Assembly (NCBI GenBank): GCA_016186825.1
Contig: JACPKW010000006.1
Location: 3,191-67,190, forward strand
DNA length: 64,000 bases
Reading direction: 5' to 3'
Origin: Candidatus Giovannonibacteria bacterium
Lineage (GTDB): Bacteria; Patescibacteriota; Minisyncoccia; JACPKW01; UBA11713
Each line of letters begins with the position of its first letter. Position 1 is the first letter of the stretch. The notes beneath the pieces are model-generated. The model was not told where the DNA came from. It did no database searches and saw nothing but the letters and a program-made list of their open reading frames with translations. The position numbers and the translations under genes are program-made. Below, one piece after another: positions 11,366-64,000 of this stretch.

Positions 11366-12652
11366 ATGTCCAAAGTTCAGTTTTTTATAATAGTTTTTTC
11401 GATTTTTATCGCGATTTTGGCAGTTTTAGTCCTGTCTGGAGTGCTCCCCGGATTGGATCCGCTCGGAAGCGAGAACCCGGTTGATTTAGTTATCTGGGGA
11501 ACAGTCCCTGAAAATGTTTTTGCAAATCAGGCCTACGAGTTAAAAAAACTTCGTGAAAACATTAATGTTGCTTATGTTCAAAAACCCGCCGCTGACTTTG
11601 AAAACACTGTAATAAATGCCTTGGCTTCCGGCTCCGGCCCAGACTTAGTTTTGGCGAGTTCCGACTTAATAATCAAGCATCAAGATAAATTCGAGCTCTT
11701 GGATCAGAAAACTCTCACGGAGAGAAGATTCCACGACGCGTTTCTTGACGGCGCAGACATTTTGATTAAACAAAACGGGATAATTGGATTGCCTCTCGTA
11801 ATAGACCCACTTGTTCTTTACTGGAACAAGGATCTTTTTTCTAACGAAGGACTCGCTAGCCCGCCCAAAACCTGGGAAGAGTTTCAAAACTATTCGCGCG
11901 CACTTACAAAAATTGACGGATCGGGAAATATTTTAGAGTCCGGCGCCGCTCTGGGTCTTGATAAAAACGTGAGGCATTATAAGGAAATTCTCTCGATGCT
12001 GATGAGGCAAGCCGGAAACCCAATCATTGACGCCCAAACCACCCAGCCGGTGCTTGCCGAGGAAAACAGCCAAAACGCCAGGGCCGCAGAAGACGCGCTC
12101 CGATTTTACTCTGAATTCGCGCGCCCCCAAAAAGCTTCATACAGCTGGAATTCGTCGAAGCCGGATTCGAGGCAGGCTTTTCTCGAAGGCAAGCTCGCGA
12201 TGTATTTCGGCCTCGGCTCGGATTTTCAATATTTAAGGGACGCCAATCCTCATTTAAATTTTGATATCGCATCCGTTCCGCAGAGCGGCACCGTAAAATC
12301 AACATCCGGAAAATTTCTGGCATTTGTGATCTCGAGGCAATCGCCCTATAAAGCCGAGGCCTTCCAGACCGCGAGTTATTTTGTATCCTTAAACCCAATT
12401 TCAGATATTGCCGCAAAAATTTTTCTCCCTCCCGCGCGCCGCGATTTTGCTTCAACAAAAGTCAATAATCCCGTGATGGCAGTCCTTGTTTTAGAAGCAG
12501 TGCGCGCGCGGCTTTGGCCGGACGTCAATTCGGAAAAAACTTCTGAAATTTTTTCAGACATGATAAAATCGGTTTATAGCGGCGGGAAAAGCGCCTTAGA
12601 CGCCGCGCGAGATGCGCAAAGCAAACTTGAAGCTCTCTATAATCAAAATTAA
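11366..12652 (+). CDS. ABC transporter extracellular solute-binding protein (family 1-like)
   Basis: 428 aa, N-terminal anchor/signal, SBP-like fold pattern. Confidence 0.7.
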   Translation: MSKVQFFIIVFSIFIAILAVLVLSGVLPGLDPLGSENPVDLVIWGTVPENVFANQAYELKKLRENINVAYVQKPAADFENTVINALASGSGPDLVLASSDLIIKHQDKFELLDQKTLTERRFHDAFLDGADILIKQNGIIGLPLVIDPLVLYWNKDLFSNEGLASPPKTWEEFQNYSRALTKIDGSGNILESGAALGLDKNVRHYKEILSMLMRQAGNPIIDAQTTQPVLAEENSQNARAAEDALRFYSEFARPQKASYSWNSSKPDSRQAFLEGKLAMYFGLGSDFQYLRDANPHLNFDIASVPQSGTVKSTSGKFLAFVISRQSPYKAEAFQTASYFVSLNPISDIAAKIFLPPARRDFASTKVNNPVMAVLVLEAVRARLWPDVNSEKTSEIFSDMIKSVYSGGKSALDAARDAQSKLEALYNQN

Positions 12653-13601
12653 TAAATTTTTCATTGCTTCTTTTTTAGCCATTCTTTTAGGAATGGCTTT
12701 TGTGTTCTCTTTTTCTGAAGCATACGCGCAAGCGCCCATTGTTCAGTGCGGAAACCCCGGTCAGCCCATGTGCAATTTGTGCGATCTTTATACGGGAATA
12801 CGCCGTATAATTAACTTTCTGCTCGTAGGCGTAGCAGTGCCGCTTGCAACCGCAGCTATGATCTGGGGAGGGATCGTGCTTGTTACATCTGGAAGTTCCG
12901 ACCGCCATACTTTAGGAAAAACGATTCTTTGGTATACGGCATTAGGCTTTCTTATCACACTCGGAGCGTGGCTTATTGTAAATACGATTCTTGATACCGT
13001 TGGGTTTAGACTGCCCTTCGGAACGGGCCAATGGTGGAACTATGAAATCTGCAAAAAATTTGACGAGTTTAAAACTGTAACTGGCGGACCCTCTGTCCCA
13101 ACAACCCCCACGACGCCGACGATGCCTTCAGTACCAACGACTGGTGGCCGAAATTGCCCAAACTGCACAAACCTGTCGCTTTCAGCAACGAATACAGCTT
13201 GCCGAAAAACCGCATCAGGGATCTGCCAGATTGATGCGAGCACAAATGAAAAACTAAAAACCTTGCAGAATGAATTGGGTAAGTCTGTAGAGCCCCTGTC
13301 CTTAACAATTACTGAAGCTTACCCTCCTATTCTTGTGCAATGCGCTTATCAAGGCCAAAAAGATTGTCATAAGGATGCCTGTCATTGGGACGGGACTTGC
13401 GTCGATGCTAAATTAATAGCCCCAACGTATACCGGAAAACAAATTGGTGATGTTGTAACAAGGGCAAAAAACGCCCAGCTTGACGCTTATTATGAAGTTG
13501 CCGATAAAACGCGCGCAAATAAACTGATAAGCCAAGGAGTGCCTGCAAGCAATATCTGGGTAACTGGAGCCAAGGAACACTTCCATATCCGCTCGAAATA
13601 A
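12612..13601 (+). CDS. TrbC/VirB2-like T4SS pilin domain fused to PT-rich linker and Cys-rich C-terminal domain
   Basis: N-domain IRRIINFLLVGVAVPLATAAMIWGGIVLVTSGSS..ILWYTALGFLITLGAWLIVNTIL matches the pilin family of the three downstream genes; linker PSVPTTPTTPTMPSVPTTGG; C-domain has 10 Cys; start uncertain (overlaps upstream gene). Confidence 0.5.
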   Translation: MRKANLKLSIIKINKFFIASFLAILLGMAFVFSFSEAYAQAPIVQCGNPGQPMCNLCDLYTGIRRIINFLLVGVAVPLATAAMIWGGIVLVTSGSSDRHTLGKTILWYTALGFLITLGAWLIVNTILDTVGFRLPFGTGQWWNYEICKKFDEFKTVTGGPSVPTTPTTPTMPSVPTTGGRNCPNCTNLSLSATNTACRKTASGICQIDASTNEKLKTLQNELGKSVEPLSLTITEAYPPILVQCAYQGQKDCHKDACHWDGTCVDAKLIAPTYTGKQIGDVVTRAKNAQLDAYYEVADKTRANKLISQGVPASNIWVTGAKEHFHIRSK

Positions 13602-13695
13602 TTATCCATTTCACAAAAACCGCCTGCTTGCTAAAATTATTAGTATATTACTAAGCATCAAAGGTCATATAAATTAAAGGTTTTTTAGTTAAATT

Positions 13696-14040
13696 ATGAA
13701 AAAAGTCGCAAAAAAAATATTGCCTTATGCCGCCGCAGGGCTTCTGCCCCTCTTGGCTTTTGCCCAAACGGCAGAGTCAATTATCACTAGAATTGATCGA
13801 ATTCTCCAACAAGTAATTCCTATTCTTCTGATAATCGGCACGATCGTATTTCTGTGGGGAATAATTGTTTTTATCACAGCAGGCGCTTCTGAAGAGAAAA
13901 AGAGCTATGGAAAATATTTGATTATTTACGGACTTGTTGGCCTCTTTGTGATGGTGGCGATCTGGGGAATTGTCGGAGTTCTTGTAAACACTTTCGGAGT
14001 GGGGGGTAGGCGCGTTCCTCGCGATGTTGGCGGAATATAA
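13696..14040 (+). CDS. TrbC/VirB2-like (T4SS) pilin family protein
   Basis: 114 aa; signal peptide; IPILLIIGTIVFLWGIIVFITAGASEEKKSYGKYLIIYGLVGLFVMVAIWGIV two-helix pilin signature. Confidence 0.6.
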   Translation: MKKVAKKILPYAAAGLLPLLAFAQTAESIITRIDRILQQVIPILLIIGTIVFLWGIIVFITAGASEEKKSYGKYLIIYGLVGLFVMVAIWGIVGVLVNTFGVGGRRVPRDVGGI

Positions 14041-14055
14041 GCAGCAACTTTTTTA

Positions 14056-14328
14056 ATGCCTGCATTGATTGCATACGCCAAGAGCGCGGATGAGATAATT
14101 GATATAACGATTGCCGAAGTTATCCAGCCGTTTCTGATTGTTTTATTCGCGCTCGCGGCGATTCTCTTTTTCTGGGGAGTGGTCCAGTTCATCATGAACC
14201 CCGATAGCGAGGATAAAAAGGCGAGCGGGAGGCAGCATATGATATGGGGGCTGATCGGACTTGCAATAATGTTCGGCGTAAATGGGATTATTAAAATTCT
14301 TCAAAACTTCGTAGGACAGATAAAATAA
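14056..14328 (+). CDS. TrbC/VirB2-like pilin family protein
   Basis: 90 aa paralog (FLIVLFALAAILFFWGVVQFIMNPDSEDKKASGRQHMIWGLIGLAIMFGVNGI). Confidence 0.55.
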   Translation: MPALIAYAKSADEIIDITIAEVIQPFLIVLFALAAILFFWGVVQFIMNPDSEDKKASGRQHMIWGLIGLAIMFGVNGIIKILQNFVGQIK

Positions 14329-14329
14329 T

Positions 14330-14836
14330 ATGGACTTTTTAATTCCCGTAGCTAACGCGCAGACCTTCAAAGGCGCTGCGGACAATATCACAAACGCTCT
14401 CGAATCAGTCATCCCGATTCTCTTTTTAATCGCGACAATCGTATTTCTTTGGGGCGTTGTTTTATACATCACAGCGGCAGGTTCGGAGGATAAAAATAAA
14501 AAGGGGCATAAATATATTATCTGGGGGCTAGTCGGTTTGTTTGTAATGGTTGCCGTTTGGGGACTTGTAAGATTAATCACATCACTTGTTTTTGGAACTG
14601 CGATTTTGCCCCGTTCTGCTGATATCCCGTGTTTACCCGGACAAACCTGTAGCTCGAGTAATTCCGGAAATTCCGCCGACTGGAACTCTGGAGGAAGGTA
14701 TGAAGGCTGGTATCCGGAAGACCAAGAAGATGAATCAGGAAATAGTATAAATGTCAACAGCGGCGTATTTGAAGTCCCTACTCCGACAGATCCATGCGAA
14801 GGCGACAACCCGGCATATTGGGATCCTGACTGTTAA
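14330..14836 (+). CDS. TrbC/VirB2-like pilin family protein with Cys-containing acidic C-terminal tail
   Basis: 168 aa paralog (IPILFLIATIVFLWGVVLYITAAGSEDKNKKGHKYIIWGLVGLFVMVAVWGLV). Confidence 0.55.
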   Translation: MDFLIPVANAQTFKGAADNITNALESVIPILFLIATIVFLWGVVLYITAAGSEDKNKKGHKYIIWGLVGLFVMVAVWGLVRLITSLVFGTAILPRSADIPCLPGQTCSSSNSGNSADWNSGGRYEGWYPEDQEDESGNSINVNSGVFEVPTPTDPCEGDNPAYWDPDC

Positions 14837-14973: not shown

Positions 14974-14985
14974 TTCAAGTAATTG

Positions 14986-15056
14986 TGCGGCCAGCGAGAA
15001 TTGAACTCGCGTCTCGTCCTTGGCAAGGACGCATTCTGCCACTAAACCATGGCCGC
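14986..15056 (-). tRNA. tRNA-Gly (GCC)
   Basis: GCGGCCA/TGGCCGC acceptor, anticodon loop TTGCCAA, TTCAATT T-loop. Confidence 0.85.
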
Positions 15057-15097
15057 AATGAATATTATTTTATCTGATAAAAATCAATTTTTCAAAG

Positions 15098-15179
15098 TGC
15101 CTCCGAGAGGATTTGAACCTCTAACCCCTTCGGGACGGCGTTCTAAGCGCCGCGCGTATGCCAGTTCCGCCACGGAGGC
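15098..15179 (-). tRNA. tRNA-Leu (TAG)
   Basis: GCCTCCG acceptor, loop CTTAGAA, long variable arm GTCCCGAAGGGGTT. Confidence 0.85.
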
Positions 15180-15185
15180 ATTTTG

Positions 15186-15269
15186 TGCCCGGAGTGGGGC
15201 TCGAACCCACAAGCCCTTTCGGGCCGAGGATTTTAAGTCCTCTGCGTAAACCAATTCCGCCATCCGGGC
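15186..15269 (-). tRNA. tRNA-Leu (TAA)
   Basis: GCCCGGA acceptor, loop CTTAAAA, long variable arm. Confidence 0.85.
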
Positions 15270-15292
15270 ATTTAAGTTTTTTTAATCTTCGG

Positions 15293-15483
15293 AGGCCATG
15301 GCGGGACTCGCACCCGCGTATAGCGGTTTTGCCCGCCTGCCAGAGCTTGAGGCCTGGGAGGGATTCGAACCCTCGTATATGGGTTTTGCAGACCCATGCC
15401 TTACCTCTTGGCTACCAGGCCATATTTGCTCAGGCCGATTGCGGGCAGGCAGACCGCCGCGTTAGCTTCTTCGCCACATGGCC
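15293..15483 (-). tRNA. candidate interrupted/split tRNA (Gly-GCC-like) whose anticodon loop contains tRNA-Cys
   Basis: 5' part 15448-15483: GGCCATG-TG-GCGA..ACGC-G-GCGGT-CTGCC; 3' part 15293-15330: AA-ACCGC-TATAC-GCGGG-TGCGAGT-CCCGC-CATGGCC-T; acceptor 7/7 and anticodon stem 5/5 complementary; D/T loops non-canonical. Confidence 0.4.
15350..15421 (-). tRNA. tRNA-Cys (GCA)
   Basis: GGCCTGG/CCAGGCC acceptor, loop CTGCAAA, GGTTCGAATCC. Confidence 0.85.
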
Positions 15484-15549
15484 AGAAATCCTTTGCGATA
15501 TTATATCATTCGATGAAAATTTTAAAGACTGATTTTTTATTTATTTTTT

Positions 15550-15879
15550 TTACTTCGCTTTCTTCAAGAGGCTCTCGATTTGAAGGCGCTTCTTCTCAGA
15601 TTCGTCCAGGATAAATTCAAGTGTTGGCACGAATTTTGTTTTGATTTGAGACGCCAAATGAAAACGCATTTCTTTCTTCAAATCCTCTAAGGAGTTTAAC
15701 ACATCTTTTTCCCTCGAATCAGGCCACACAGAAAAAAATATTTTCAAATGATTTAGGTCATCCGAAATCTCAACTTTAGTCACGCTAAATGTTCCATCCT
15801 TTATGAAAAGGTTCTTTTGCAAAAAAACTGATACTGTTTCGTTATATAAAGATGCGAGTTTCTCCTGGCGATGGTTCAT
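15550..15879 (-). CDS. rbfA: ribosome-binding factor A
   Basis: 109 aa, immediately downstream of infB, RbfA-like KH fold pattern. Confidence 0.7.
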   Translation of the reverse strand: MNHRQEKLASLYNETVSVFLQKNLFIKDGTFSVTKVEISDDLNHLKIFFSVWPDSREKDVLNSLEDLKKEMRFHLASQIKTKFVPTLEFILDESEKKRLQIESLLKKAK

Positions 15880-17964: not shown

Positions 17965-18054
17965 TGGCGGAGGCGGGAGGATTCGAACCTCCGATACCCT
18001 TTCGGATATACCGCTTTTCGAGAGCGGCCCGATCAACCACTCCGGCACGCCTCC
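17965..18054 (-). tRNA. tRNA-Ser (CGA), CCA encoded
   Basis: GGAGGCG acceptor, loop CTCGAAA, long variable arm, terminal CCA. Confidence 0.85.
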
Positions 18055-23619: not shown

Positions 23620-23890
23620 AACTTGTGCGCGGGAGAGCCTGCCTGCAGGCAGGGACTTGGTCACGAATAAATTCCTTCTGAATTTTTCTCGACCCCGACT
23701 CGTCTGTTCCGCTCTGCGGAACATGACTCCGGCTTGCAAGTCCTCCCGCAAGTGAAGCAGTTCACTTGCTTCCCGCGACAAAATTGCTTCGCAATTTGTG
23801 CGCGGGAGAGGACTTGCACCTCCACGTCCTTGCGGACACCAGCCCCTCAAGCTGGCCTGTCTTCTAGTTTCAGCACCCGCGCAAATTACA
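23620..23890. other. GC-rich structured intergenic element (candidate ncRNA or repeat)
   Basis: local GC far above flanks; direct repeats TTGTGCGCGGGAGAG at ~23624 and ~23806; palindrome CCTGCCTGCAGGCAGG (23642-23657); hairpin GCAAGTGAA-GCAG-TTCACTTGC (23748-23769); ends GTGCGCGGG / CCCGCGCA can pair. Confidence 0.3.
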
Positions 23891-31636: not shown

Positions 31637-32101
31637 TCAGATGCTTAAGGAATTAAAAAGATCCCGAAGAAAGTTCCAGCGCCTCGAAGATTCGTATTCT
31701 TTCCACAGTCTGGAAATTATCCGAGTGATTTCGGACTTATACTCGGGTTTCGGGCATCTCGCATAAAGCTCGAACATATTCAAGAACGCCTTCATATCTT
31801 CGGGAATCTTTCCTGCAAAAACGCGCCGGAATGCATCCATTTCCAAAGAAATTCTCCGGTCAAATCTTGTTCTCATGGTGAGAAGAGAAATCGACCCGAA
31901 CTTTAATAAACAAATGGAAACGATGAGCGCTAGATACCATTGCAGAGGCCAAATAAACGCAAAGCCAAGAAGCCCAACCTGCCCCACCAAATTGAAAGTT
32001 CTGACAAAAGTCACGCATGCAATAAAATCTTTTGCGTAATAAATTCTCAATGCCGAATAAACTCGTTCTTCAGAATCCATAACTCCTCCTTGTGATTTCA
32101 A
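31637..32101 (-). CDS. hypothetical membrane protein
   Basis: 154 aa, 2-3 TM. Confidence 0.4.
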   Translation of the reverse strand: MKSQGGVMDSEERVYSALRIYYAKDFIACVTFVRTFNLVGQVGLLGFAFIWPLQWYLALIVSICLLKFGSISLLTMRTRFDRRISLEMDAFRRVFAGKIPEDMKAFLNMFELYARCPKPEYKSEITRIISRLWKEYESSRRWNFLRDLFNSLSI

Positions 32102-32104
32102 ACA

Positions 32105-32175
32105 ACACTTTTGTGCGCGCTCGAGGGATCGAACCCCGGGCCTACTCGGTGTAAACGAGTCGCTCTGCCACTGAG
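32105..32175 (-). tRNA. tRNA-Val (TAC)
   Basis: GCGCGCT acceptor, loop TTTACAC. Confidence 0.85.
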
Positions 32176-32205
32176 CTAAGCGCGCATATTTTTAATTTTC
32201 TATCT

Positions 32206-32322
32206 ATGCGCAGTATTCTTGAATTAGTCCGAACCCCGGTAGTAAAGCAAAGCTTACTACGGGGCACGGCGCATTTCGCCGCCTGCGGCGGCGAGCCTGC
32301 CTGCCGGTAGGCAGGTTTGGCG
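32206..32322. repeat. island repeat module copy (hairpin motif + CCTGCCTGCCGGTAGGCAGG palindrome) immediately downstream of paralog P1
   Basis: GCAGTATTCTTGAATTAGTCCGAACCCCGGTAGTAAAGCAAAGCTTACT..GGGG shared with 35183-35260; palindrome shared with 35443-35462 and R repeats. Confidence 0.55.
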
Positions 32323-32330
32323 GCAAATTC

Positions 32331-33021
32331 TTATTGGATAAATTTAAAACTTCCAACCAATTCTTCAAAAGCAGCATTATCAAAAATCTCACCCCGTTTA
32401 TTCATTTTTATGGTTATGCCTTCAATCTTATCTCCTCCGCGTAAATACTTTAACGCCGTAATTGGTATGTATACCACCTCTAGAATTTCGTCACTACCAA
32501 TATTTTGTTCTGTAAACCGTGTCGCTTGCATACCACTCACAAGAACCACTTCCCGAAAATTAGATGAAGCTTTTCTTCCACGATCTTTCATTTTTCCAGC
32601 CAGTTCCTTTATTGAATCAATGCTTACTGGTATCGGATATATTTCAATGCTGTTTTGTAGTGAAGTTTGTGCTAAAGAAGGGGCGAAGAATAGTTCTTCC
32701 GATTTTGCTGCTTGTTGTGCTCCGGTTAGAAAACGCAGTTCTTCATTCCTATCATTTTTTGTGACAAGAACAAATTCAGCATTTTCATCGGCAAAATTGG
32801 TAATTGGATTTGGTCCAGTCGTATTCATAAACTTTGTGTAATCCAATGCAACTCGATAATTTTTCGGCAGAGAAAATGTATAACCCAATCTATTATTTAT
32901 GTAACTCGTTTTTTGTTCTGTGGTCGTGTTCGGTGTTTGAATGTCATTATCGCTCCCCCCTTTTTTTGTTAAGAACAGATAACCTCCAATTCCAAGCACG
33001 ACAATAACAAGTAGTATTATT
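32331..33021 (-). pseudogene. paralog P1 of anchored secreted-protein family; canonical ATG replaced by ACG (possible pseudogene or rare start)
   Basis: upstream in-frame codons encode ..T-NQKGFAKILIILLVIVVLGIGGYLF.. matching MNQKGFANI.. N-termini of P2-P4, but ATG->ACG; ORF-track start is internal GTG at 32999. Confidence 0.45.
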
Positions 33022-33083
33022 AAAATTTTAGCAAATCCCTTTTGGTTCGTATTGATAAAAATTTAAGTCAATGATTAAAAAAT

Positions 33084-33206
33084 TTTTCTTTTCCCCAAAA
33101 TTAAAATATGGTTCGAGCCGACCCGCCTGCATCAGCTATGCTGAAAGCATTGCGGGCAGGTGTTTTTCTATGGGTTCTTTACCTACCGGCAGGCAGGTTT
33201 GGCGGC
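33084..33206. repeat. R repeat copy R1 (5'-leader/intergenic module)
   Basis: TTTTCCCCAAAATTAAAATATGGTTCGAGCCGACCCGCCTGCATCAGCTATGCTGAAAGCATTGCGGGCAGG..CCTACCGGCAGGCAGGTTTGGCGGC; near-identical to 33972-34095 and 37383-37500. Confidence 0.6.
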
Positions 33207-33336
33207 ATTCAATCAAAAATTCGTAGAGCGAATACTTAAAGAATATAAGATTATGACAAAAATTTCAATTTCAAAAAAAGTACGAGCCCCAAGCAGAATT
33301 GAATTCCACGAGGGGCTCGAGTGGTCACCGACGCCG

Positions 33337-33819
33337 TTAGGCGAAGATTTCGGTGGCGTAGCGCTTGGAAAAGAAACGGAACTTGATCCGGTCGAGCATG
33401 GTAAGCGTCGCCTTGCCCCACCGCGCGAGGTTCACGAACACGGTGCCGTCGTTCGAATCCATGAAGTCCTTGAACTGGTAATCCACCGGGTCGCCCTTGT
33501 GGAACTCGAGGACGACGTCCCAGCCGTCCTCAATCGCCTGCATGCCAGTGAATATGCCACAGCGAGTGGTACTGCTGAACTGGATGAACTTGTCGCCCTG
33601 CTCGCTAGTCATTCGAACATCCACCATCTCGCACATCGCGCCGTACTTGCGGATCGCCTCGTCGATCGAGATCGTCCGCCCCTTGCCGGGAGCCCACCGC
33701 AGACCCGCCAGTTGTCCATCGTCGTAGATGTTCATCTGGAAAAGCGGCATAGGGTGACCCTTGAGGTTGAGAAACTCCTGGGCCTTCTTGAGCCCGCCGA
33801 GTGTAGGTTTGTAACCCAT
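33337..33819 (-). CDS. GC-rich foreign hypothetical protein (160 aa) occupying a paralog slot
   Basis: local GC ~60% vs ~40% genome; strong SD GGAGGG 7 nt upstream of ATG; own terminator GAGCCCC..GGGGCTC+T7 at ~33262-33305; balanced aa composition whereas + strand ORF 33160-33993 is antisense-like. Confidence 0.55.
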   Translation of the reverse strand: MGYKPTLGGLKKAQEFLNLKGHPMPLFQMNIYDDGQLAGLRWAPGKGRTISIDEAIRKYGAMCEMVDVRMTSEQGDKFIQFSSTTRCGIFTGMQAIEDGWDVVLEFHKGDPVDYQFKDFMDSNDGTVFVNLARWGKATLTMLDRIKFRFFSKRYATEIFA

Positions 33820-33971
33820 AACGGTTCCCTCCTTTCAATGTGCAGTTTGATTCCATCCAAGCACCATGCCTGGATTTCCTGCTATCCAACCATAATAGGA
33901 CTTGTGTGTCAAGCGCAACAAAAAATCACCATCTCTGGTGTTTCTCATTTCTTAACTCTTTGGATTAAAAA

Positions 33972-34170
33972 CTTTTCTTTCCCCCAAAATTAAAATATGG
34001 TTCGAGTCGACCCGCCTGCATCAGCTATGCTGAAAACATTGCGGGCAGGTGTTTTTCTCCAGGTTCCCTGCCTACCGGCAGGCAAGTTTTGCGGTTTTTA
34101 TCAGCGCGAACATCTTTATCATATCACAAACAACATTCCTTTCCCAATCTGGTGCAGTATTCTTGAATTA
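33972..34170. repeat. R repeat copy R2
   Basis: same module as R1/R5 plus tail ..CTGGTGCAGTATTCTTGAATTAGTCCGAACCC. Confidence 0.6.
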
Positions 34171-34447
34171 GTCCGAACCCATTTCGCCGCCGCACCGATA
34201 ACAATTTTCCTTCAACTTCGTTCAGGATGGTGAGCTTGCCGAATCAACAAGTTTTTCTTCTTGACCTGAGCTTATCGAAGGTTGGAGGCAGGAGTTATTT
34301 ACTGACTCACAACATGTTAACTACAATATCTTTCTGTTTATTAACATGTCCAACACAAGGCATATAGTGGTGATCAGTGATCTAGTTCTCCGATAACTCC
34401 TTCAATTTTTTATATTTAAGTTCTTTCGGTATGTGCGTAATTATAGA

Positions 34448-35080
34448 CTACCTTGATGCTTGATAGAATTTAATTGTTGCAATTGCGGCTTCAGAGGAAG
34501 CAAATATCTCATCAACACGATTTTTTTCTACATTAGGACCACCAAGAACTCGTATCGTGATTCCTTTATTAGTAAGTGGATGAATAAAATAGAGATCTTC
34601 TAAAATATTAATCACCACATTTGGATCAGAAGAGAAAAACTCTGTTTTGCAACCTTGAACGGATATTCCTCCTGAAGTTTTAATCTCAATTCCACCCCTT
34701 TTTATCCCTCCGCCCAAGGTATTATCACCAGTGCATCCTGATGACTGATATTCTTTCAGAGTATGATCGTCATTAGAATAGGTCCATGTAATATAATACT
34801 TAGGGGGATTAGACGGAATTAGAGCGTTAGCTTCTTTACTATCAAGCGCGTCTCCCCCGGAAATCAAATAACTAGCCCCTACATGGGGCTTCCATTTATT
34901 AACATCGTAGTGAATTTCTATACCAAATGCGTCGCTTCGAAAAATCCCTAACCCCATGCTATCGATCGTTTTCGTTGGAGATTGACTCAGATTTTTAATA
35001 AGCGCAAAATATCCAATCGTACCTACAAGTATCACAATGACTACTATCAAAACAATATTCGCAAATCCCTTTTGGTTCAT
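34448..35080 (-). CDS. paralog P2, anchored secreted protein
   Basis: 210 aa; MNQKGFANIVLIVVIVILVG N-terminus. Confidence 0.55.
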   Translation of the reverse strand: MNQKGFANIVLIVVIVILVGTIGYFALIKNLSQSPTKTIDSMGLGIFRSDAFGIEIHYDVNKWKPHVGASYLISGGDALDSKEANALIPSNPPKYYITWTYSNDDHTLKEYQSSGCTGDNTLGGGIKRGGIEIKTSGGISVQGCKTEFFSSDPNVVINILEDLYFIHPLTNKGITIRVLGGPNVEKNRVDEIFASSEAAIATIKFYQASR

Positions 35081-35126
35081 GTTAAAAATTTATTCGCTAT
35101 TAAGTTTTCCACTCATTATTAAAAAA

Positions 35127-35260
35127 TTTTCTTCCCCAAAAATTAAAATATGGTTCGATATTCTTAGTATAGCATTATTTTTGCAGTATTCTTGAATTAG
35201 TCCGAACCCCGGTAGTAAAGCAAAGCTTACTGCGGGGCATGGCGCATTTTGCCGCACCGA
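35127..35260. repeat. R repeat copy R3 (variant)
   Basis: TTTTCTTCCCCAAAAATTAAAATATGGTTCGAT + GCAGTATTCTTGAATTAGTCCGAACCCCGGTAGTAAAGCAAAGCTTACTGCGGGG. Confidence 0.5.
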
Positions 35261-35477
35261 TGCTTGCCCCGTACCAATCCTAAGCAAGAACTCGGCAATG
35301 GTAGTATGTAAGCCGAAGGCGATATCGCGAGATAAACTTAGATTTTAGAAGCGATATATTTGGGATTGGTGCGGGGACAATTTTCCCGCCGCATATTTAA
35401 AATTTTAGAAGGCGGGATCCCGTTAAAAACGGTGACAAGTTTTTCCCTGCCTGCCGGCAGGCAGGTTTGGCGGCAAA

Positions 35478-36116
35478 TTATTTAGTCCAAACAAAGGACG
35501 AAACAATATGATCAAAAACAGAATCGTATTTACTATCAAGACCATGTGCAAATCTAAACTCTGCAGTGTAATCTCCTTTCGTAATTGTCGCAATATACTG
35601 TTCAGATCCTGGTTCTCTTTTTTGTATAAGAATTTCGGTACTGCCAGATTTTATCTTTCTCAAGGTAGTGTAAGTGTACCAAACTGGGGGCGGCGGTGTT
35701 TTTTTGTAATTGATAATTACGACAGAAATACTTTTTTGTTCAGAGGTTTCTCCTGGAGGCAAAAAATAAACACTCGTCCCAATCTCACCAGTTCCAAACT
35801 CTTTTATAGACCAATTGAGCGGATATTCAGCCGAATATCCAAACCACTGATTTGTTTTGCTATATATCTTCCAGCCGCTATCAGCTGGTTTCTTTACTGG
35901 TTCGCTCCCTCCACTTTTTATCGACTCACTGTTAACAAGTGGTTTAGGTTCACTCTGTATATTTTCCGCCGGAGTTTTATCGGAGCTTGTAGATTCGACA
36001 GGCTGATTTACAGGAGGATTCTGTGGGCGTTGCCTCAGTACAAAATATCCAGTCGCGCCAACAAGTACAACGACCAGAACAATTACGATTATATTTGCAA
36101 ATCCCTTTTGATTCAT
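35478..36116 (-). CDS. paralog P3, anchored secreted protein
   Basis: 212 aa; MNQKGFANIIVIVLVVVLVG; WKIYSKTNQWFGYSAEYPLNW motif. Confidence 0.55.
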   Translation of the reverse strand: MNQKGFANIIVIVLVVVLVGATGYFVLRQRPQNPPVNQPVESTSSDKTPAENIQSEPKPLVNSESIKSGGSEPVKKPADSGWKIYSKTNQWFGYSAEYPLNWSIKEFGTGEIGTSVYFLPPGETSEQKSISVVIINYKKTPPPPVWYTYTTLRKIKSGSTEILIQKREPGSEQYIATITKGDYTAEFRFAHGLDSKYDSVFDHIVSSFVWTK

Positions 36117-36126
36117 ATGATTAAAA

Positions 36127-36296
36127 CTTTTCTTCCCCCAAAATTAAAATATGGTTCGAGCCGATTGTTTTAACGGGTTCTATGCCTACCGGCAGGCAAG
36201 TTTTGCGGTTTTTATCAGCGCGAACGTCTTTATAATATCACAAACAATGTTCCTTTCTAAACTGGTGCAGAATTCTTGAATTAGTCCGAACCCATT
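36127..36296. repeat. R repeat copy R4 (internal deletion variant)
   Basis: CTTTTCTTCCCCCAAAATTAAAATATGGTTCGAGCCGA..CCTACCGGCAGGCAAGTTTTGCGG..CTGGTGCAGAATTCTTGAATTAGTCCGAACCC. Confidence 0.55.
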
Positions 36297-36435
36297 TCGC
36301 CGCAGTTACCGACTCTTTTTGTGGCCATATTGATGAGATGTTTTATGCTGGTAATCACCCCTTGATTTTACCAACGGCGGTGTCGCAGGGGTATTACCGA
36401 TGTATCTCATCTTCTGCAATAATTGCAATCTCTTT

Positions 36436-36690
36436 TTATAATTCGGATTTATTTTTTAAACGATTTTCGATAAAAAGCGAAACAAAAAGCAATATCAATG
36501 CCCCTAATGCGATTGGGGTCGCAAAATATTTATAAAACGGCCATGGGCAAAAACCGCGTTCATATAAAGGTGCATTCTGCATTTCTGTAATGCATTTGTT
36601 TTCAACTGTTAAAATAACGACAAGAAAAATAAAATAAAGCACGACGATCGCAAGACTTAGCAATTTGAAAAACTTTATGAAAACCACCAT
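36436..36690 (-). CDS. hypothetical small membrane protein
   Basis: 84 aa, two TM helices, Cys pair. Confidence 0.35.
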   Translation of the reverse strand: MVVFIKFFKLLSLAIVVLYFIFLVVILTVENKCITEMQNAPLYERGFCPWPFYKYFATPIALGALILLFVSLFIENRLKNKSEL

Positions 36691-36767
36691 ATGGTCTTAG
36701 AATTAAATTAATTAATAAATTTGAAAGTTAGGAGGATTTCATTAACTGTTTTCCTTTTAGCGGTAAA

Positions 36768-37328
36768 CTATTCAGCATACTTTAAGGTCTTAGCGATTGC
36801 TTCCATCTGAGAAACATGGGCATCAACGAGTGATTTATTAAAGCATCCGGAATCAAATCTATCATATCGCGTTTGACCATCAAATTTCGTGTATGCAATT
36901 TGTAGCGTTACATCATCACCCTCACATTTTATAAGAGTTTCATCTACCATCTCGCCATCGATTAAAATTTTCTTAGCCCAAACTGTGCCATAACCGATAT
37001 ATCCACCAACTTCTTTCATGCCAGCAAAAAACGTAAATTGAAAACCGGGTTTTTCAAAAATCACGTTTGTCCAAGTAGAGCCGGGTTTTTCGGATAACTT
37101 TAGCTCCAATGGATATTTTAGCTCAAATCCATATTTTTCACTTCTGTATGTTTTCCAGCTTGCAGTTTCGCTATTAGATATAGGAGGAGTTTGTGTTGTG
37201 GCTGGAGGCATTTTTTGTTCAGCAGAAGGAGCCGAGATTTTTACGAATGCAAAATATCCGCCGACAGCTACGATGGCAACGATTACTATTATCAAAACAA
37301 TATTCGCAAATCCTTTTTGATTTTTCAT
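36768..37328 (-). CDS. paralog P4, anchored secreted protein
   Basis: 186 aa; MKNQKGFANIVLIIVIVAIVAVGG; WKTYRSEKYGFELKYPLELK. Confidence 0.55.
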   Translation of the reverse strand: MKNQKGFANIVLIIVIVAIVAVGGYFAFVKISAPSAEQKMPPATTQTPPISNSETASWKTYRSEKYGFELKYPLELKLSEKPGSTWTNVIFEKPGFQFTFFAGMKEVGGYIGYGTVWAKKILIDGEMVDETLIKCEGDDVTLQIAYTKFDGQTRYDRFDSGCFNKSLVDAHVSQMEAIAKTLKYAE

Positions 37329-37382
37329 ATTAATATGATTATTAGTTAATAATTTCCGACTTTATGTTTATGATTAAAAAAT

Positions 37383-37560
37383 TTTTTTCCCCAAAATTAA
37401 AACATGGTTCGAGCCGACCCGCCTGCATCAGCTATGCTGAAAACATTGCGGGCAGGTGTTTTTCTCCAGGTTCCCTGCCTACCGGCAGGCAGGTTTTGCG
37501 GTTTTTATCAGCGCAAACGTCTTTATAATATCACAAACAACATTCCTTTCTAAACTGGTG
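37383..37560. repeat. R repeat copy R5, fused at its distal end to a tRNA 3' half
   Basis: same module as R1/R2; ends ..AAACTGGTG|CCCCCGCCAAGAATCGAACTTGG. Confidence 0.6.
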
Positions 37561-37736
37561 CCCCCGCCAAGAATCGAACTTGGATCTACTCCTTACCTGC
37601 CCACCGTTGCCTGCGCCCTCGGCAGGAATCGAACCTACATCTAGGGCTTAGAAGACCCCTATTCTATCCATTGAACTACGAGGGCAACTTAGGCAGGTGG
37701 GGAAGGGAGCTATTCTATCCGTTGAACTACAGGGGC
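37556..37736 (-). tRNA. candidate interrupted/split tRNA (Arg-like body) whose anticodon loop contains tRNA-Arg(TCT); CCA encoded
   Basis: 5' half 37701-37736: GCCCCTG-TA-GTTC-AACGGATA-GAAT-A-GCTCC-CTTCC; 3' half 37556-37592: AA-GGAGT-AGAT-CCAAG-TTCGATT-CTTGG-CGGGGGC-A-CCA; acceptor 7/7 (one G.U), anticodon stem 5/5 (one G.U); canonical D and T loops. Confidence 0.45.
37614..37685 (-). tRNA. tRNA-Arg (TCT)
   Basis: GCCCTCG/CGAGGGC acceptor, loop CTTCTAA, TTCGATT T-loop. Confidence 0.85.
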
Positions 37737-37770
37737 TTTTAAATAAAAATGCGTAAGTATTTTAACCGAT

Positions 37771-38064
37771 TTAAGGATTGGTTTCAAATCCCGCGCCATT
37801 AGCATCAAAAGCGGATTTTTTTTCGTTTATTCTTTGGAATACTTTTCGAAAACTGTCTTTTTTCAGCGTCTGTAATACGTCATCATCAGAATAGTTTTTT
37901 GCGCTGTTCCCATTCAAATTAACGGAGTAAACCCACCAGTCAAATACAAAAACAATAATAAGCAGAAGGACAGAGAAAGCAATAAGCTTGCTCCACCAGC
38001 GCCCGGGCGCCGAACTAAATACATCACTTATATTAACTGACGGTTTTTTTATATTAAAATTCAT
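37771..38064 (-). CDS. hypothetical membrane protein, first gene downstream of pilO in T4P operon
   Basis: 97 aa, one TM. Confidence 0.35.
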   Translation of the reverse strand: MNFNIKKPSVNISDVFSSAPGRWWSKLIAFSVLLLIIVFVFDWWVYSVNLNGNSAKNYSDDDVLQTLKKDSFRKVFQRINEKKSAFDANGAGFETNP

Positions 38065-38585
38065 TTTGAAAAAATATAGCTGATAAGCCTAAAGGTATAA
38101 TAAGTCTTCCAATTTCCGCTTTCCCCGGCTTCTTTCCTAAAATTTATTTTATCCATGATCATTTGATAAGGCATGTTTTCGAGTAAAAAAGAATATCGGA
38201 GCAAGCCGGAAAAAGACCCCGAAGCTTCCAGCTGGAAAGACGGCCCGAGCTCTGCAGCGTTCAAAATTCCAGTCGCTGAAGTTACCTTCAAATTTATGCC
38301 CGATAGGCGGGCGATTTCTTCTAAGTCCTCAATAAAGTGGACAAGATTTTCGTCAGTTATGAATAATTTATCAAGCATTTCTTTTTCTTCGTTTAAATCG
38401 TCCAAAGTATTTGTAATGGCTTTTACATTTCTTGTTTTAGTTTCAGCGAGTGCAATATTGCTTTTTAATATACGAACTTCTGCTTTTAAAATCTGAATCT
38501 GATTTAAAACAAAATATCCTGCGACAAAAACCGAGATTAAAATCGCCGCACCTCCCAATATTCTTTTGTCTAAAAGAATATTCAT
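38061..38585 (-). CDS. PilO-like type IV pilus inner-membrane assembly protein
   Basis: 174 aa, N-terminal TM + coiled coil, position after pilN. Confidence 0.5.
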   Translation of the reverse strand: MNILLDKRILGGAAILISVFVAGYFVLNQIQILKAEVRILKSNIALAETKTRNVKAITNTLDDLNEEKEMLDKLFITDENLVHFIEDLEEIARLSGINLKVTSATGILNAAELGPSFQLEASGSFSGLLRYSFLLENMPYQMIMDKINFRKEAGESGNWKTYYTFRLISYIFSK

Positions 38586-63734: not shown

Positions 63735-63861
63735 GAAATTTCATTCTCGCATGAAAAACCGGAAGCGTAAAATTAAAAACGATTCTTTAAAAAAGAGTAA
63801 AAAAAAATTCGCTGAAAGAAAAAGCTGGGTTTCGGCAACTTGCCACGCCACTTAATATTAG

Positions 63862-63932
63862 TGGACCCGGGGGGAATTGAACCCCCGCTTGCGCAATGCG
63901 AATGCGCCGTTATGCCACTTAACTACGGGCCC
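63862..63932 (-). tRNA. tRNA-Ala (CGC)
   Basis: GGGCCCG acceptor with G3:U70, loop TTCGCAT. Confidence 0.8.
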
Positions 63933-64000
63933 GTAGAATAAGTGGCGGGGTAAGATGCCGCTTTCGCCCGCTTCCTACTGCGGGCGCATTTCCGTCTATA

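What the first reader, a model, noticed from the sequence alone, without database searches (positions are those of the whole stretch)
15293..15483. Second instance: tRNA-Cys embedded within a split tRNA-Gly(GCC)-like gene
The architecture matches the Arg locus. The 5' part (15448-15483, minus strand) reads GGCCAUG-UG-GCGA..ACGC-G-GCGGU-CUGCC. The 3' part (15293-15330) reads AA-ACCGC-UAUAC-GCGGG-UGCGAGU-CCCGC-CAUGGCC-U. The acceptor pairs 7/7 and the anticodon stem 5/5. The implied loop is CUGCC|AA, giving anticodon GCC with the same CC|AA junction as the Arg locus. The intervening ~130 nt contain a complete tRNA-Cys (15350-15421). The insert boundaries again carry complementary segments: CUGCC/UGCCCGC on the 5' side and GGCAG/GCGGGCA on the 3' side, arranged X-Y...X'-Y' so that a pseudoknot could form. 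Unlike the Arg-locus host, the D-loop and T-loop here are non-canonical (no G18G19, and G55), so this host may be decaying. Two occurrences of the same unusual architecture in 64 kb argue against coincidence.
Basis: seen in the sequence. Interest (0 to 1): 0.8.

Follow-up and report, generated by a model that had tools for sequence, protein, structure and literature searches.

The report
tRNA gene nested inside same-anticodon tRNA
In this small-genome (Patescibacteria) bacterium, the resident cysteine tRNA gene, and likewise an arginine tRNA gene, has been split inside its anticodon by an insert carrying a complete second tRNA with the same anticodon. This looks like a young case of a recurrent, apparently undescribed way of replacing tRNA genes in place.

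Summary
The architecture is real. A 118-nt insert containing an intact tRNA-Cys(GCA) (15350-15421, minus strand) sits between two tRNA halves that join into a perfect cloverleaf. No other tRNA in the window, and none of 150 shuffled flanks, gives this result.

- **Host identity:** the host is tRNA-Cys(GCA), not Gly(GCC). It is the ordinary Patescibacteria tRNA-Cys and is uninterrupted in every relative examined. It is split at 34/35 (or 35/36).
- **Arg locus:** its host is the resident tRNA-Arg(UCU), uninterrupted in 6 of 6 relatives and split at 35/36. In both loci host and guest share the anticodon.
- **Odd D and T loops:** these are a coordinated variant (A18:G55 instead of G18:U55), not decay.
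- **Pseudoknot:** unnecessary. The linkers form a stalk, and the Cys stalk ends match a palindromic repeat dispersed in this genome.

The insert has no group I core, no bulge-helix-bulge (BHB) motif and no ORF. Other Patescibacteria contigs show more same-identity nestings with visibly decayed hosts. Several of these carry a small GIY-YIG nuclease ORF abutting the incoming tRNA.

Best reading: a recent in-place tRNA gene replacement. The inner tRNA is functional and the outer halves are a fresh pseudogene. Splicing of the host is not excluded.

The parts
15500..15508 (-). Extended -10 promoter element TGATATAAT, 16 nt upstream of host G1. It would drive host 5' part, inner tRNA-Cys, host 3' part, and probably the downstream tRNA-Leu genes.
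   Evidence: Read from the sequence. The consensus scan found no full -35/-10 pair here, so this is an inference from the extended -10 motif.
15450..15483 (-). Host tRNA-Cys(GCA) 5' part, nt 1-34: GGCCATG TG GCG AAGAAGCTAA CGC G GCGGT CTG. C15449 may also belong to it if the split is at 35/36.
   Evidence: Uninterrupted orthologues: (L086, L137, L171).
15422..15449 (-). 5' linker CCTGCCCGCAATCGGCCTGAGCAAATAT. Its first 12 nt are the left arm of a palindromic motif dispersed in this genome. It pairs with the 3' linker.
   Evidence: the same 12-mer occurs at 33149, 34038 and 37445, same strand.
15350..15421 (-). Inner, canonical tRNA-Cys(GCA) with G18G19 and a TTCGAAT T loop. CCA is not encoded. 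Presumed to be the functional gene.
   Evidence: ARAGORN; Rfam RF00005, 70.4 bits.
15332..15349 (-). 3' linker CAAGCTCTGGCAGGCGGG. Its last 9 nt, GCAGGCGGG, are the right arm of the same palindromic motif.
   Evidence: the same 9-mer occurs at 33122, 34011 and 37418, same strand.
15293..15331 (-). Host tRNA-Cys 3' part, nt 35-73: CAAA ACCGC TATAC GCGGG TGCGAGT CCCGC CATGGCC T.
15097..15269 (-). tRNA-Leu(UAA) and tRNA-Leu(UAG) immediately downstream. The Cys-Leu cluster is the conserved syntenic context of the host-type tRNA-Cys.
   Evidence: In one search, 69 tRNA-Leu(taa) lie beside 119 tRNA-Cys in the related contigs.
37759..37787 (-). Promoter-like TTGAAA-17-TAAAAT just upstream of the Arg host.
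37702..37736 (-). Arg-locus host tRNA-Arg(UCU) 5' part, nt 1-35, ending CTTC.
   Evidence: Uninterrupted orthologues L211, L214, L219 and L220.
37686..37701 (-). Arg-locus 5' linker CCCACCTGCCTAAGTT.
37614..37685 (-). Inner tRNA-Arg(UCU).
   Evidence: (66.5 bits).
37596..37613 (-). Arg-locus 3' linker CAGGCAACGGTGGGCAGG. It pairs with the 5' linker.
37556..37595 (-). Arg-locus host 3' part, nt 36-73, plus encoded CCA.
37382..37550 (-). One copy of a ~170-nt repeat (four copies: 33086, 33975, 36089, 37382) lying directly downstream of the Arg locus. Three of the four copies, this one included, contain the motif CCTGCCCGCAAT-N18-GCAGGCGGG, whose arms match the Cys insert termini. The palindrome CCTGCC..GGCAGG occurs in the three well-conserved copies and is degenerate in the fourth.

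Best explanation
**What it is.** Each locus is the resident, syntenic tRNA gene: tRNA-Cys(GCA) after rbfA, and tRNA-Arg(UCU) after the pilus operon. Each has been split inside its anticodon (Cys 34/35 or 35/36; Arg 35/36) by a 106-118 bp cassette. The cassette is a complete tRNA gene with the same anticodon but a different sequence lineage. It is bracketed by two GC-rich linkers that pair into a stalk continuing the host anticodon stem.

**How it works.** The cassette has no promoter of its own and is transcribed from the host's promoter. RNase P and a 3' endonuclease or exonuclease, followed by CCA addition, would release the inner tRNA, which now does the decoding. The two outer halves cannot be rejoined by any known bacterial activity and are a very young, still unmutated pseudogene.

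**Wider process.** The event belongs to a recurrent process in Patescibacteria. tRNA cassettes land in a loop of the resident tRNA gene of the same identity and replace it, and the host fragments then decay. Cassettes of this kind often have a small GIY-YIG nuclease ORF abutting the tRNA, and sometimes carry dispersed GC-rich palindromes.

**Shown versus inferred.**
- Shown: the anatomy, the orthology of the hosts, same-identity nesting in several unrelated contigs, host decay elsewhere, the GIY-YIG association elsewhere, and the repeat origin of the Cys stalk ends.
- Inferred: the processing route, the non-function of the host, and the insertion mechanism. The mechanism is proposed as nuclease-initiated break repair or homing, or hairpin-targeted insertion. 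The identity match would then arise because the nuclease or the homology targets that tRNA gene, and because only a compensating insert is viable.
For: **Host identity**
- L086 (RbfA 65% identical) has the uninterrupted gene GGCCATGTGGTGAAGAAGCTAACACGGCGGTCTGCAAAACCGC at the same place.
- All 120 metagenome contigs matching the host 5' half continue ...CTGC AAAACCG.
- Host Cys is 70/73 identical to L137 and L171, with compensated pair changes. Host Arg is 68/72 identical to L214. Host versus inner is only 55/72 in both loci.
- Six of six pilM-syntenic relatives have an uninterrupted tRNA-Arg(tct).

**Not an intron of a known kind**
- No group I hit, even at E<=10.
- No BHB motif can be threaded onto either junction (sequence; folds).

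**Promoters** lie upstream of the hosts only.

**Recurrence and host decay elsewhere**
- L101/L126: Cys in Cys at 34/35; the host variable region has grown from 5 to 17 nt.
- L095: the host has no anticodon loop left and carries a D-loop insertion.
- L138: Pro(UGG) inside a Pro-like host whose anticodon is now UGA and whose T arm is disrupted.
- L139: a mosaic of remnants.
- L176: Ser(UGA) in Ser(UGA) at 34/35, with about 330 nt of further insert.
- L113: Leu(GAG) in Leu(GAG).
- L193: Ser(CGA) remnants.
- L217: same genome, just beyond the window; tRNA-Pro(CGG) with a stalk and a degenerate Pro 5' half.

**GIY-YIG association**
- GIY-YIG ORFs (PF01541) end 3-10 nt before a complete tRNA, or overlap its start, and are flanked by fragments of a displaced same-identity tRNA in L104, L202, L143, L094 and L142.
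- One such ORF lies directly before the orthologue of the Arg host in L214/L216.
- Precedent: T4 SegB is a GIY-YIG homing endonuclease that recognises tRNA T-loop DNA and drives inheritance of a tRNA gene region (PMC2330249).

**Stalk and repeats**
- Stalk folding z-scores are -3.4 (Cys) and -2.9 (Arg).
- The Cys insert termini equal the arms of a repeat motif found three more times in the window.
- CTGCC-N(0-14)-GGCAG palindromes: 8 found against 0.29 expected.
Against: - Both window hosts are completely intact: every stem pairs, and the differences from orthologues are compensated or lie in loops. That is what a spliced, functional host would also show. Only recency explains it under this model, and recency could not be dated.
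- No GIY-YIG or other nuclease, integrase or transposase lies in the inserts or anywhere in the 64 kb. The link to homing cassettes therefore rests on other genomes.
- There is no target duplication and no shared insertion sequence between the two loci, so no specific DNA mechanism is demonstrated.
- The sample of related contigs was selected for carrying tRNA-Cys, so frequencies are biased.
- Several of the 'decayed host' parses (L138, L139, L193) are hand alignments of short remnants.
Confidence: 0.6

Rival explanations
1. Functional nested intron. Both tRNAs are made. The stalk presents the inner tRNA to RNase P and RNase Z. The remaining host halves, held together by the acceptor stem, anticodon stem and stalk, are then trimmed and ligated (by an RtcB- or Rnl-type ligase, or by an unknown endonuclease plus ligase) to give a second tRNA of the same identity.
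For: - The host exons are flawless and very close to working orthologues.
- Both inserts lie inside the anticodon, where Patescibacteria tRNA introns are common, including the unusual 35/36 site (PMC13011429).
- The linkers form a significant stalk coaxial with the anticodon stem.
Against: - No known bacterial pathway removes such an insert.
- No BHB motif and no ribozyme core.
- RNase P and Z cuts would leave 16-28 nt tails needing exact trimming.
- No ligase or splicing endonuclease was found in the window.
- In every other nested case found, the host is further disrupted. In L095 the anticodon loop is simply absent, so hosts are not maintained over the long term.
- A second tRNA of identical anticodon gives no obvious benefit.
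Confidence: 0.12
2. One reading: a decaying split tRNA-Gly(GCC)-like host, with a CC|AA junction and a boundary pseudoknot, carrying an unrelated tRNA-Cys.
For: ARAGORN also accepts the CTGCC+AA join as tRNA-Gly(gcc).
Against: - Uninterrupted orthologues read CTGCAAA.
- U73, the GGCC acceptor start and the TATAC variable loop are those of the tRNA-Cys family.
- A separate intact tRNA-Gly(GCC) lies at 14985-15056.
- The loop variants covary 46:0 and 19:0 in intact genes.
- The two boundary pairings overlap and cannot both form.
Confidence: 0.02
3. Footprint of a classical integrase-type island or a MITE-like transposon. The insert would be what remains after an element integrated at the anticodon loop, a known integrase crossover site, and was then mostly deleted. 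Alternatively, it is a palindrome-bounded non-autonomous transposon that happens to carry a tRNA.
For: - The insertion sites seen across loci (anticodon loop, T loop) are the known integrase sublocations in tRNA genes (established knowledge, not tested here).
- The insert ends are imperfect inverted repeats. For Cys they are copies of a dispersed palindromic repeat.
Against: - No direct repeat of a tRNA segment or target-site duplication at either locus.
- No integrase or transposase in the window.
- An integrase model predicts chimeric tRNAs or a duplicated 3' part, not a complete foreign tRNA between two host halves.
- The model does not by itself explain the identity match.
Confidence: 0.12
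4. The host halves plus stalk are retained as a processing or stability scaffold for the inner tRNA. A tRNA-like outer frame would recruit RNase P and Z and insulate the transcript, but never becomes a tRNA.
For: - Stand-alone tRNAs of the same genome also have leader-trailer stalks: tRNA-Ala(CGC) at 63861-63932, z -5.5, and tRNA-Pro(CGG) in L217.
- This suggests that stalks matter for maturation.
Against: - Hosts decay in other lineages.
- The other 14 tRNA genes in the window manage without a stalk or frame.
Confidence: 0.08

Closest known systems
Group I introns in the anticodon loop of Patescibacteria tRNA genes, including the unusual 35/36 site (Nakagawa et al. 2026, PMC13011429)
   Same: Same phylum, same target (the anticodon loop, including 35/36), precise insertion without target duplication, and the same tendency of annotation tools to shift the boundary and misname the tRNA.
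   Different: There is no ribozyme core. Only 34-46 nt of the insert are not tRNA. The 5' exon ends in G or C rather than U. The insert carries a complete tRNA of the host's own identity, which that paper does not report.
Free-standing GIY-YIG homing endonuclease SegB in the phage T4 tRNA gene cluster (PMC2330249)
   Same: A GIY-YIG nuclease tied to tRNA genes, which recognises tRNA-gene DNA and drives replacement of the rival tRNA region. Related Patescibacteria contigs show GIY-YIG ORFs abutting a tRNA and flanked by pieces of the displaced same-identity tRNA.
   Different: SegB lies between tRNA genes, not inside one, and no nested tRNA results. The window inserts have no ORF at all. The Patescibacteria proteins are about 85-100 aa single-domain GIY-YIG proteins whose activity is untested.
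Archaeal and eukaryal protein-spliced tRNA introns, split tRNAs, and introns that host another RNA (for example the C/D box RNA in haloarchaeal tRNA-Trp). From established knowledge.
   Same: A non-self-splicing insert in or near the anticodon loop whose ends pair with each other. The precursor would carry a second functional RNA.
   Different: The genome is bacterial. No bulge-helix-bulge motif can be formed. The position is inside the anticodon rather than 37/38. The cargo is a full tRNA of the same identity.
Genomic islands and phages integrated in tRNA genes (anticodon-loop and T-loop crossover classes). From established knowledge.
   Same: tRNA genes as targets, the same sublocations, and leftover partial tRNA copies next to intact ones (for example L202, L104).
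   Different: No integrase, no duplicated core sequence, the insert is about 110 bp, and the replacement is a whole tRNA placed between the two host halves.
REP/REPIN- or MITE-like dispersed palindromic repeats
   Same: The Cys insert begins and ends with the arms of a palindromic motif present in further copies in the genome. Similar small GC-rich palindromes sit in D, T or variable loops of disrupted tRNAs in other contigs.
   Different: No target-site duplication and no associated transposase were seen. The other copies here lie in the repeated upstream regions of paralogous genes, so they may be regulatory rather than mobile.

Membership tests
   Uninterrupted orthologues read CTGCAAA, i.e. 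GCA. ARAGORN calls the host Cys(gca) with the inner tRNA removed.
tRNA-Cys(GCA), Patescibacteria 'type 1' | Sequence orthology to intact tRNA-Cys genes, U73, and the same syntenic position | tested here: met
   70/73 identity to L137 and L171 with compensated pairs. Same position after rbfA as in L086. The Cys-Leu cluster is conserved.
Group I intron in tRNA | Conserved catalytic core (RF00028) | tested here: not met
   No hit at the gathering threshold in the window or at E<=10 in 15200-15560. The insert is 118 nt, of which 72 are tRNA.
Group I intron in tRNA | U at the last exon position and G at the last intron position | tested here: not met
   The Cys 5' exon ends in G34 (or C35) and the Arg 5' exon in C35. 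The intron-terminal G is present in both. The rule is stated in PMC13011429.
Group I intron in tRNA | Insertion within the anticodon loop | tested here: met
   Cys 34/35 or 35/36; Arg 35/36.
Archaeal/eukaryal BHB intron | Two 3-nt bulges separated by a 4-bp helix, carrying both splice sites | tested here: not met
   Threading the motif by hand for the 34/35, 35/36 and 36/37 boundaries gives mismatched central helices. The folds show an internal loop followed by a continuous helix.
Archaeal/eukaryal BHB intron | Splicing endonuclease (EndA) and RtcB-type ligase encoded | tested here: inconclusive
   Neither is among about 60 ORFs of the window. The rest of the genome was not available.
Free-standing homing-endonuclease cassette (SegB-like) | Endonuclease ORF within or abutting the mobile segment | tested here: not met
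   No ORF in the inserts. phmmer with the Patescibacteria GIY-YIG proteins finds nothing in the window. The feature is met in the related loci L104, L202, L143, L094, L142 and L214.
Free-standing homing-endonuclease cassette (SegB-like) | Occupied and empty alleles of the same gene among relatives | tested here: met
   Empty alleles in L086 and the 120 contigs (Cys), and in L209, L211, L214, L219 and L220 (Arg).
Free-standing homing-endonuclease cassette (SegB-like) | Cleavage of the empty allele and its conversion | not testable with these tools
   Needs enzyme assays or crosses.
Integrase-mediated island in a tRNA gene | Direct repeat of the tRNA segment (att core) at both ends, plus an integrase | tested here: not met
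   No repeat at either junction. No integrase in the window.
MITE / REP-like palindromic repeat | Terminal inverted repeats and multiple dispersed copies | tested here: met
   The Cys insert termini recur three more times in the window as a pair. The palindrome family gives 8 matches against 0.29 expected.
MITE / REP-like palindromic repeat | Target-site duplication | tested here: not met
   None at either locus.
Disrupted tRNA pseudogene | Disabling substitutions or further indels in the remnants | tested here: not met
   The window hosts are intact. The feature is met in the other nested loci L095, L101, L138, L139 and L176.

The most novel reading that the evidence does not exclude
The nested arrangement is a true bacterial tRNA intron of a new kind. 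The embedded tRNA is cut out by the ordinary tRNA-end enzymes (RNase P, RNase Z), and the host halves, held together by the stalk, are trimmed and ligated. One transcript would then yield two different tRNAs of the same anticodon. This would be protein-dependent tRNA splicing in Bacteria.
Probability: 0.08. Interest if true: 0.95.

Novelty: new variant of a known kind. Interest (0 to 1): 0.68.

Why it matters
- **A new route of tRNA gene turnover.** If the replacement reading holds, tRNA genes in these minimal genomes are not static. They would be overwritten in place by same-identity cassettes that compensate for the gene they destroy. This would be a selfish-element strategy different from hiding in a self-splicing intron.
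- **It could explain patchy tRNA sequence types.** Closely related Patescibacteria carry different tRNA-Cys sequence types at the same locus (L086 against L087).
- **Annotation consequences.** Standard tools miss the host, or call spurious genes. ARAGORN reports a false tRNA-SeC here.
- **A testable handle.** The association with tiny GIY-YIG nucleases and GC-rich palindromes gives a way to study how essential single-copy RNA genes can be invaded.
- **If the host is spliced after all,** it would be the first protein-dependent tRNA splicing in Bacteria.

Tried and rejected
1. **Genome-contig scan with IF-2.** The best relative is only 45% identical. The 36 tRNAs in L006-L088, which comprise these loci and the three RbfA-relative contigs L086-L088, showed no nesting, so the single scan was poorly spent.
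2. **Viral-contig scans for both inner tRNAs.** No hits, so there is no sign of phage origin.
3. **Group I intron.** Nothing in the window, nor in L113, L138, L139, L107, L095 and L176 at the gathering threshold, nor at E<=1 around the long L176 and L139 inserts.
4. **BHB motif.** Threaded by hand for three boundary choices and rejected.
5. **Wider delete-and-rescan (offsets to 60 nt).** This produced false positives in tight tandem tRNA arrays (L129, L151, L104, L113), which are chimeras of neighbouring tRNAs. They were discarded.
6. **Site-specific recombination models.** Tyrosine (7-nt overlap) and serine (2-nt overlap) recombinase models were checked against the junctions. A GC dinucleotide could fit Cys, but nothing fits Arg. 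Rejected as a general model.
7. **Tandem-duplication or Campbell-type origin.** Rejected, because host and inner tRNA belong to different sequence types (55/72 identity) and these routes give tandem or chimeric copies, not nested ones.
8. **CCCGC/GCGGG enrichment at stalk bases.** Eight cases against none in the control, but confounded by neighbouring tRNA T arms, so not used.
9. **The '0 of 120 interrupted' figure.** The pattern ended in CTGC, so it cannot detect hosts split at 34/35. L101 shows such hosts exist among those very contigs.
10. **Literature.** No paper in the library describes a tRNA nested in a tRNA.
Full report
**Organism and setting.** The window is bacterial. It encodes RbfA, a short IF-2, GyrA and a type IV pilus operon. 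NCBI names the identical RbfA and PilM proteins as 'Candidatus Giovannonibacteria bacterium', a member of the Patescibacteria, on a 72-kb contig. ARAGORN makes 18 calls, all on the minus strand. One of them is spurious, which leaves 17 tRNA genes.

**The observation.**
- On the minus strand the sequence reads: GGCCATG TG GCG AAGAAGCTAA CGC G GCGGT CTG(C), then a 118-nt insert, then (C)AAA ACCGC TATAC GCGGG TGCGAGT CCCGC CATGGCC T.
- The insert holds a complete tRNA-Cys(GCA) at 15421..15350. At 70.4 bits it is the second-best Rfam tRNA score in the window.
- The Arg locus (37736..37556) has the same design around tRNA-Arg(UCU) at 37685..37614.
- ARAGORN accepts the joined halves as tRNAs.
- I removed each predicted tRNA, joined its flanks at every offset from 0 to 45 nt on both sides, and rescanned. 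Only these two loci gave a host. The other 16 ARAGORN calls gave none, and none of 150 dinucleotide-preserving shuffles of the flanks gave one for either locus.
- Four independent assemblies of the same species carry the identical Cys locus.
- The architecture is therefore real and not due to chance.

**What the hosts are.** The junction is ambiguous in sequence. CTGCC+AA reads as Gly(GCC), while CTGC+AAA or CTG+CAAA reads as Cys(GCA). Relatives settle the question.
- A contig whose RbfA is 65% identical (L086) carries the same tRNA uninterrupted at the same position after rbfA, with the loop CTGCAAA and a compensated D-stem change.
- A metagenome scan with the host 5' half returned 120 contigs, all continuing ...CTGC AAAACCG....
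- The host is 70/73 identical to the intact genes in L137 and L171. In each comparison two of the three differences form a compensated base pair.
- With the inner tRNA deleted, ARAGORN itself calls the host tRNA-Cys(gca) with a 45-nt intron.
- For the Arg locus, six pilM-syntenic relatives (L209, L211, L214/L216, L219, L220) all carry an uninterrupted tRNA-Arg(tct) at that position. L214 is 68/72 identical to the window host, with the loop CTTCTAA.
- Both hosts are therefore the resident genes, and in both loci the guest has the same anticodon as the host.
- The Arg split is unambiguously at 35/36. The Cys split is at 34/35 or 35/36. The 34/35 reading is favoured for two reasons. The insert then begins and ends exactly with the arms of a repeat motif (see below). 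The displaced 3' parts in L101 and L202 also begin CAAAACCG.

**The 'non-canonical' loops.** I compared 66 distinct host-type tRNA-Cys genes.
- A D loop of the form GAAG-xA-GC (no G18G19) always goes with a T loop TGC (G55): 46 to 0.
- A D loop GAAG-xG-GC always goes with TTC (19 to 0), apart from one gene with a TCC T loop that was left out of the table. Fisher p is about 1e-16; the sequences are related, so this is indicative only.
- This is a coordinated change of the 18:55 tertiary contact, not decay.
- tRNA-Leu(GAG) at 23798-23882 in the window has the same combination.

**Anatomy of the inserts.**
- The inner tRNAs belong to a different sequence lineage from their hosts: 55/72 identity in both loci.
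- The Cys guest resembles the tRNA-Cys that occupies the rbfA-adjacent position in another relative, L087 (59/68).
- The linkers pair with each other. In the minimum-energy fold the host anticodon stem continues, across an internal loop, into a stalk that carries the inner tRNA at its tip.
- With the tRNA replaced by GAAA, the stalks fold better than shuffles: z -3.4 for Cys and -2.9 for Arg.
- Promoter elements lie just upstream of the host 5' ends: TGATATAAT for Cys and TTGAAA-17-TAAAAT for Arg. The linkers have none, so the guests depend on the hosts' promoters.
- There is no group I core, no BHB motif for any of the three boundary choices, no ORF, no target duplication, and no direct repeat.

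**Recurrence.** I scanned 386 tRNAs in all sequence fetched for flank pairing. I then repeated the scan with the inner tRNA deleted and searched for flanking homology to each tRNA's own halves. These scans turned up further cases in unrelated Patescibacteria contigs.
- L101/L126: tRNA-Cys inside tRNA-Cys at 34/35. The host variable region has expanded from 5 to 17 nt, and L193 holds the intact homologue.
- L113: Leu(GAG) inside Leu(GAG), inserted near position 26, plus a D-loop hairpin.
- L176: Ser(UGA) inside Ser(UGA) at 34/35, with about 330 nt of extra insert and a disrupted T loop.
- L138: Pro(UGG) inside a Pro-like host whose anticodon now reads UGA and whose T arm is broken.
- L095 and L139: host-type tRNA-Cys inside the other tRNA-Cys type, the reverse of the window. 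In L095 the host has no anticodon loop left.
- L193: Ser(CGA) between the ends of a second Ser(CGA).
- L217: the same genome, just past the window end. tRNA-Pro(CGG) has a stalk and a degenerate Pro 5' half upstream.

In every case where the host identity could be read, it matches the guest. The insertion position varies (anticodon, T loop, D region). Every host outside the window is further damaged. None of these loci has a group I hit.

**Two associated features.**
- *GIY-YIG ORFs.* Small single-domain GIY-YIG ORFs (PF01541, about 85-100 aa) end 3-10 nt before a complete tRNA, or overlap its start. They sit next to, or between, fragments of a displaced tRNA of the same identity.
  - L104: Ser 5' copy, then GIY-YIG, then a full Ser.
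  - L202 and L143: GIY-YIG, then Cys, then a displaced Cys 3' half.
  - L094: GIY-YIG, then Cys, then a duplicated 3' end.
  - L142: the ORF lies inside a tRNA-Val D loop.
  - One ORF sits directly before the orthologue of the Arg host in L214/L216.
  - The window itself has no such ORF and no other nuclease, integrase or transposase.
  - T4 SegB is a published precedent: a GIY-YIG homing endonuclease that recognises tRNA T-loop DNA and drives inheritance of a tRNA region (PMC2330249).
- *Palindromic repeats.* The Cys insert starts with CCTGCCCGCAAT and ends with GCAGGCGGG.
  - The same two words, in the same order and strand and 18 nt apart, occur in three copies of a ~170-nt repeat upstream of tandem paralogous secreted-protein genes, at about 33.1, 34.0 and 37.4 kb.
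  - The last of these copies lies directly downstream of the Arg locus (chance expectation 0.4 and 0.34 matches per window).
  - These repeats also carry the palindrome CCTGCC..GGCAGG, whose arms match those at the Arg stalk ends. The pattern CTGCC-N(0-14)-GGCAG gives 8 matches against 0.29 expected.
  - Similar small palindromes sit in loops of disrupted tRNAs elsewhere (L142, L202, L101).

**Interpretation.** The best-supported account is in-place replacement.
- A same-identity tRNA cassette was inserted into a loop of the resident gene.
- The guest is matured by the normal end-processing enzymes and does the decoding.
- The host halves are a pseudogene that decays over time.
- The window shows two very recent events, plus an older one just outside it.

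The identity match is most simply explained if the process is targeted to that tRNA gene, by a nuclease or by homology during repair, and if only compensating inserts survive in a genome with single-copy tRNAs. The exact DNA mechanism is not established. Homing-type break repair and hairpin-loop-targeted insertion are both compatible with the data. Classical integrase or transposon models fit poorly.

The main rival is that the host is spliced. It rests only on the flawless state of the two window hosts. The lack of any recognisable splicing signal and the decay of hosts elsewhere count against it, but only RNA data can exclude it.

**Comparison with known systems and novelty.** The closest systems are group I introns at 35/36 in Patescibacteria tRNAs (PMC13011429), SegB-type intronless homing, archaeal BHB introns with RNA cargo, tRNA-targeted islands, and REP/MITE-like palindromes. 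The loci fail at least one defining test for each (see the membership table). I found no description of tRNA-in-tRNA nesting in the searchable literature. I class it as a new variant of known kinds: disrupted tRNA genes and homing-type gene replacement.

**Caveats.**
- The related contigs were selected for carrying tRNA-Cys or pilM, so frequencies are not population estimates.
- Several remnant parses are hand alignments.
- Only 64 kb plus a few kb of this genome could be inspected.

Noticed in passing
L089-L208 (tRNA-Cys genes); window 15293-15483 and 23798-23882: Tertiary-pair covariation in Patescibacteria tRNAs. A D loop lacking G18 (A18 G19) always goes with a T loop TGC (G55), and G18G19 goes with TTC (U55): 46:0 and 19:0 in 66 distinct tRNA-Cys genes. 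tRNA-Leu(GAG) in the window shows the same A18/G55-type loops.
   Followed up: partly
window 15291-15384 (-): ARAGORN reports a tRNA-SeC(tca) here. It is an artefact built from the host 3' half plus the 3' part of the inner tRNA-Cys. Rfam does not support it.
   Followed up: yes
window 63861-63932 (-) and flanks 63830-63965: tRNA-Ala(CGC) is not nested, but its leader and trailer pair into a long stalk (GCGGCATCTTACCCCGCCACTTA / TAAGTGGCGTGGCAAGTTGCCG, z -5.5). It is preceded by the hairpin GCGCCCGC..GCGGGCG.
   Followed up: partly
L217 1680-1850 (same genome, just beyond window position 64000): tRNA-Pro(CGG) has a leader-trailer stalk and a degenerate tRNA-Pro 5' half 37 nt upstream. A possible matching acceptor 3' strand (ACCCAG) lies only after the tRNA-Ala cassette. 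This may be an older nested event in the same genome. A CCA-adding enzyme gene lies upstream.
   Followed up: partly
L104 1879-2227; L202 215-700; L143; L094 74-560; L142 1230-1640; L214 12451-12841: Small single-domain GIY-YIG ORFs (~85-100 aa) end 3-10 nt before a complete tRNA gene, or overlap its start. They are flanked by fragments of a displaced tRNA of the same identity.
   Followed up: partly
window 32000-38200: Tandem array of paralogous small secreted-protein genes on the minus strand, with N termini MKNQKGFANIV.... Each is preceded by a ~170-250 nt repeated upstream region with two conserved GC-rich hairpins: CCTGCC-TRCCGGYA-GGCAGG, and CCTGCCCGCAAT-N18-GCAGGCGGG, which has two mutually exclusive pairings. 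This may be a structured leader RNA or a REP-like element. Rfam has no match.
   Followed up: partly
window 12612-14836 (+): Four consecutive ORFs with a type IV secretion pilin domain (PF18895) lie next to the tRNA cluster.
   Followed up: no
window, all tRNA genes: All 17 tRNA genes in 64 kb lie on the minus strand. Most are followed by C-A rather than CCA. Only tRNA-Ser(CGA) at 17965-18054 and the Arg-locus host encode a full CCA.
   Followed up: no
L086, L087, L088 (contigs of RbfA relatives): All three contigs end about 80 nt after rbfA, inside or just before the tRNA-Cys gene. Close relatives carry different tRNA-Cys sequence types at this one position: type 1 in L086 and L088, type 2 in L087.
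   Followed up: partly
window 62713-63126 (-) and 63174-63734 (-): A UPF0102 (YraN-like predicted endonuclease) gene and an RNase T-like exonuclease gene sit between tRNA-Pro(UGG) and tRNA-Ala(CGC). RNase Y is at 57047-58576.
   Followed up: no
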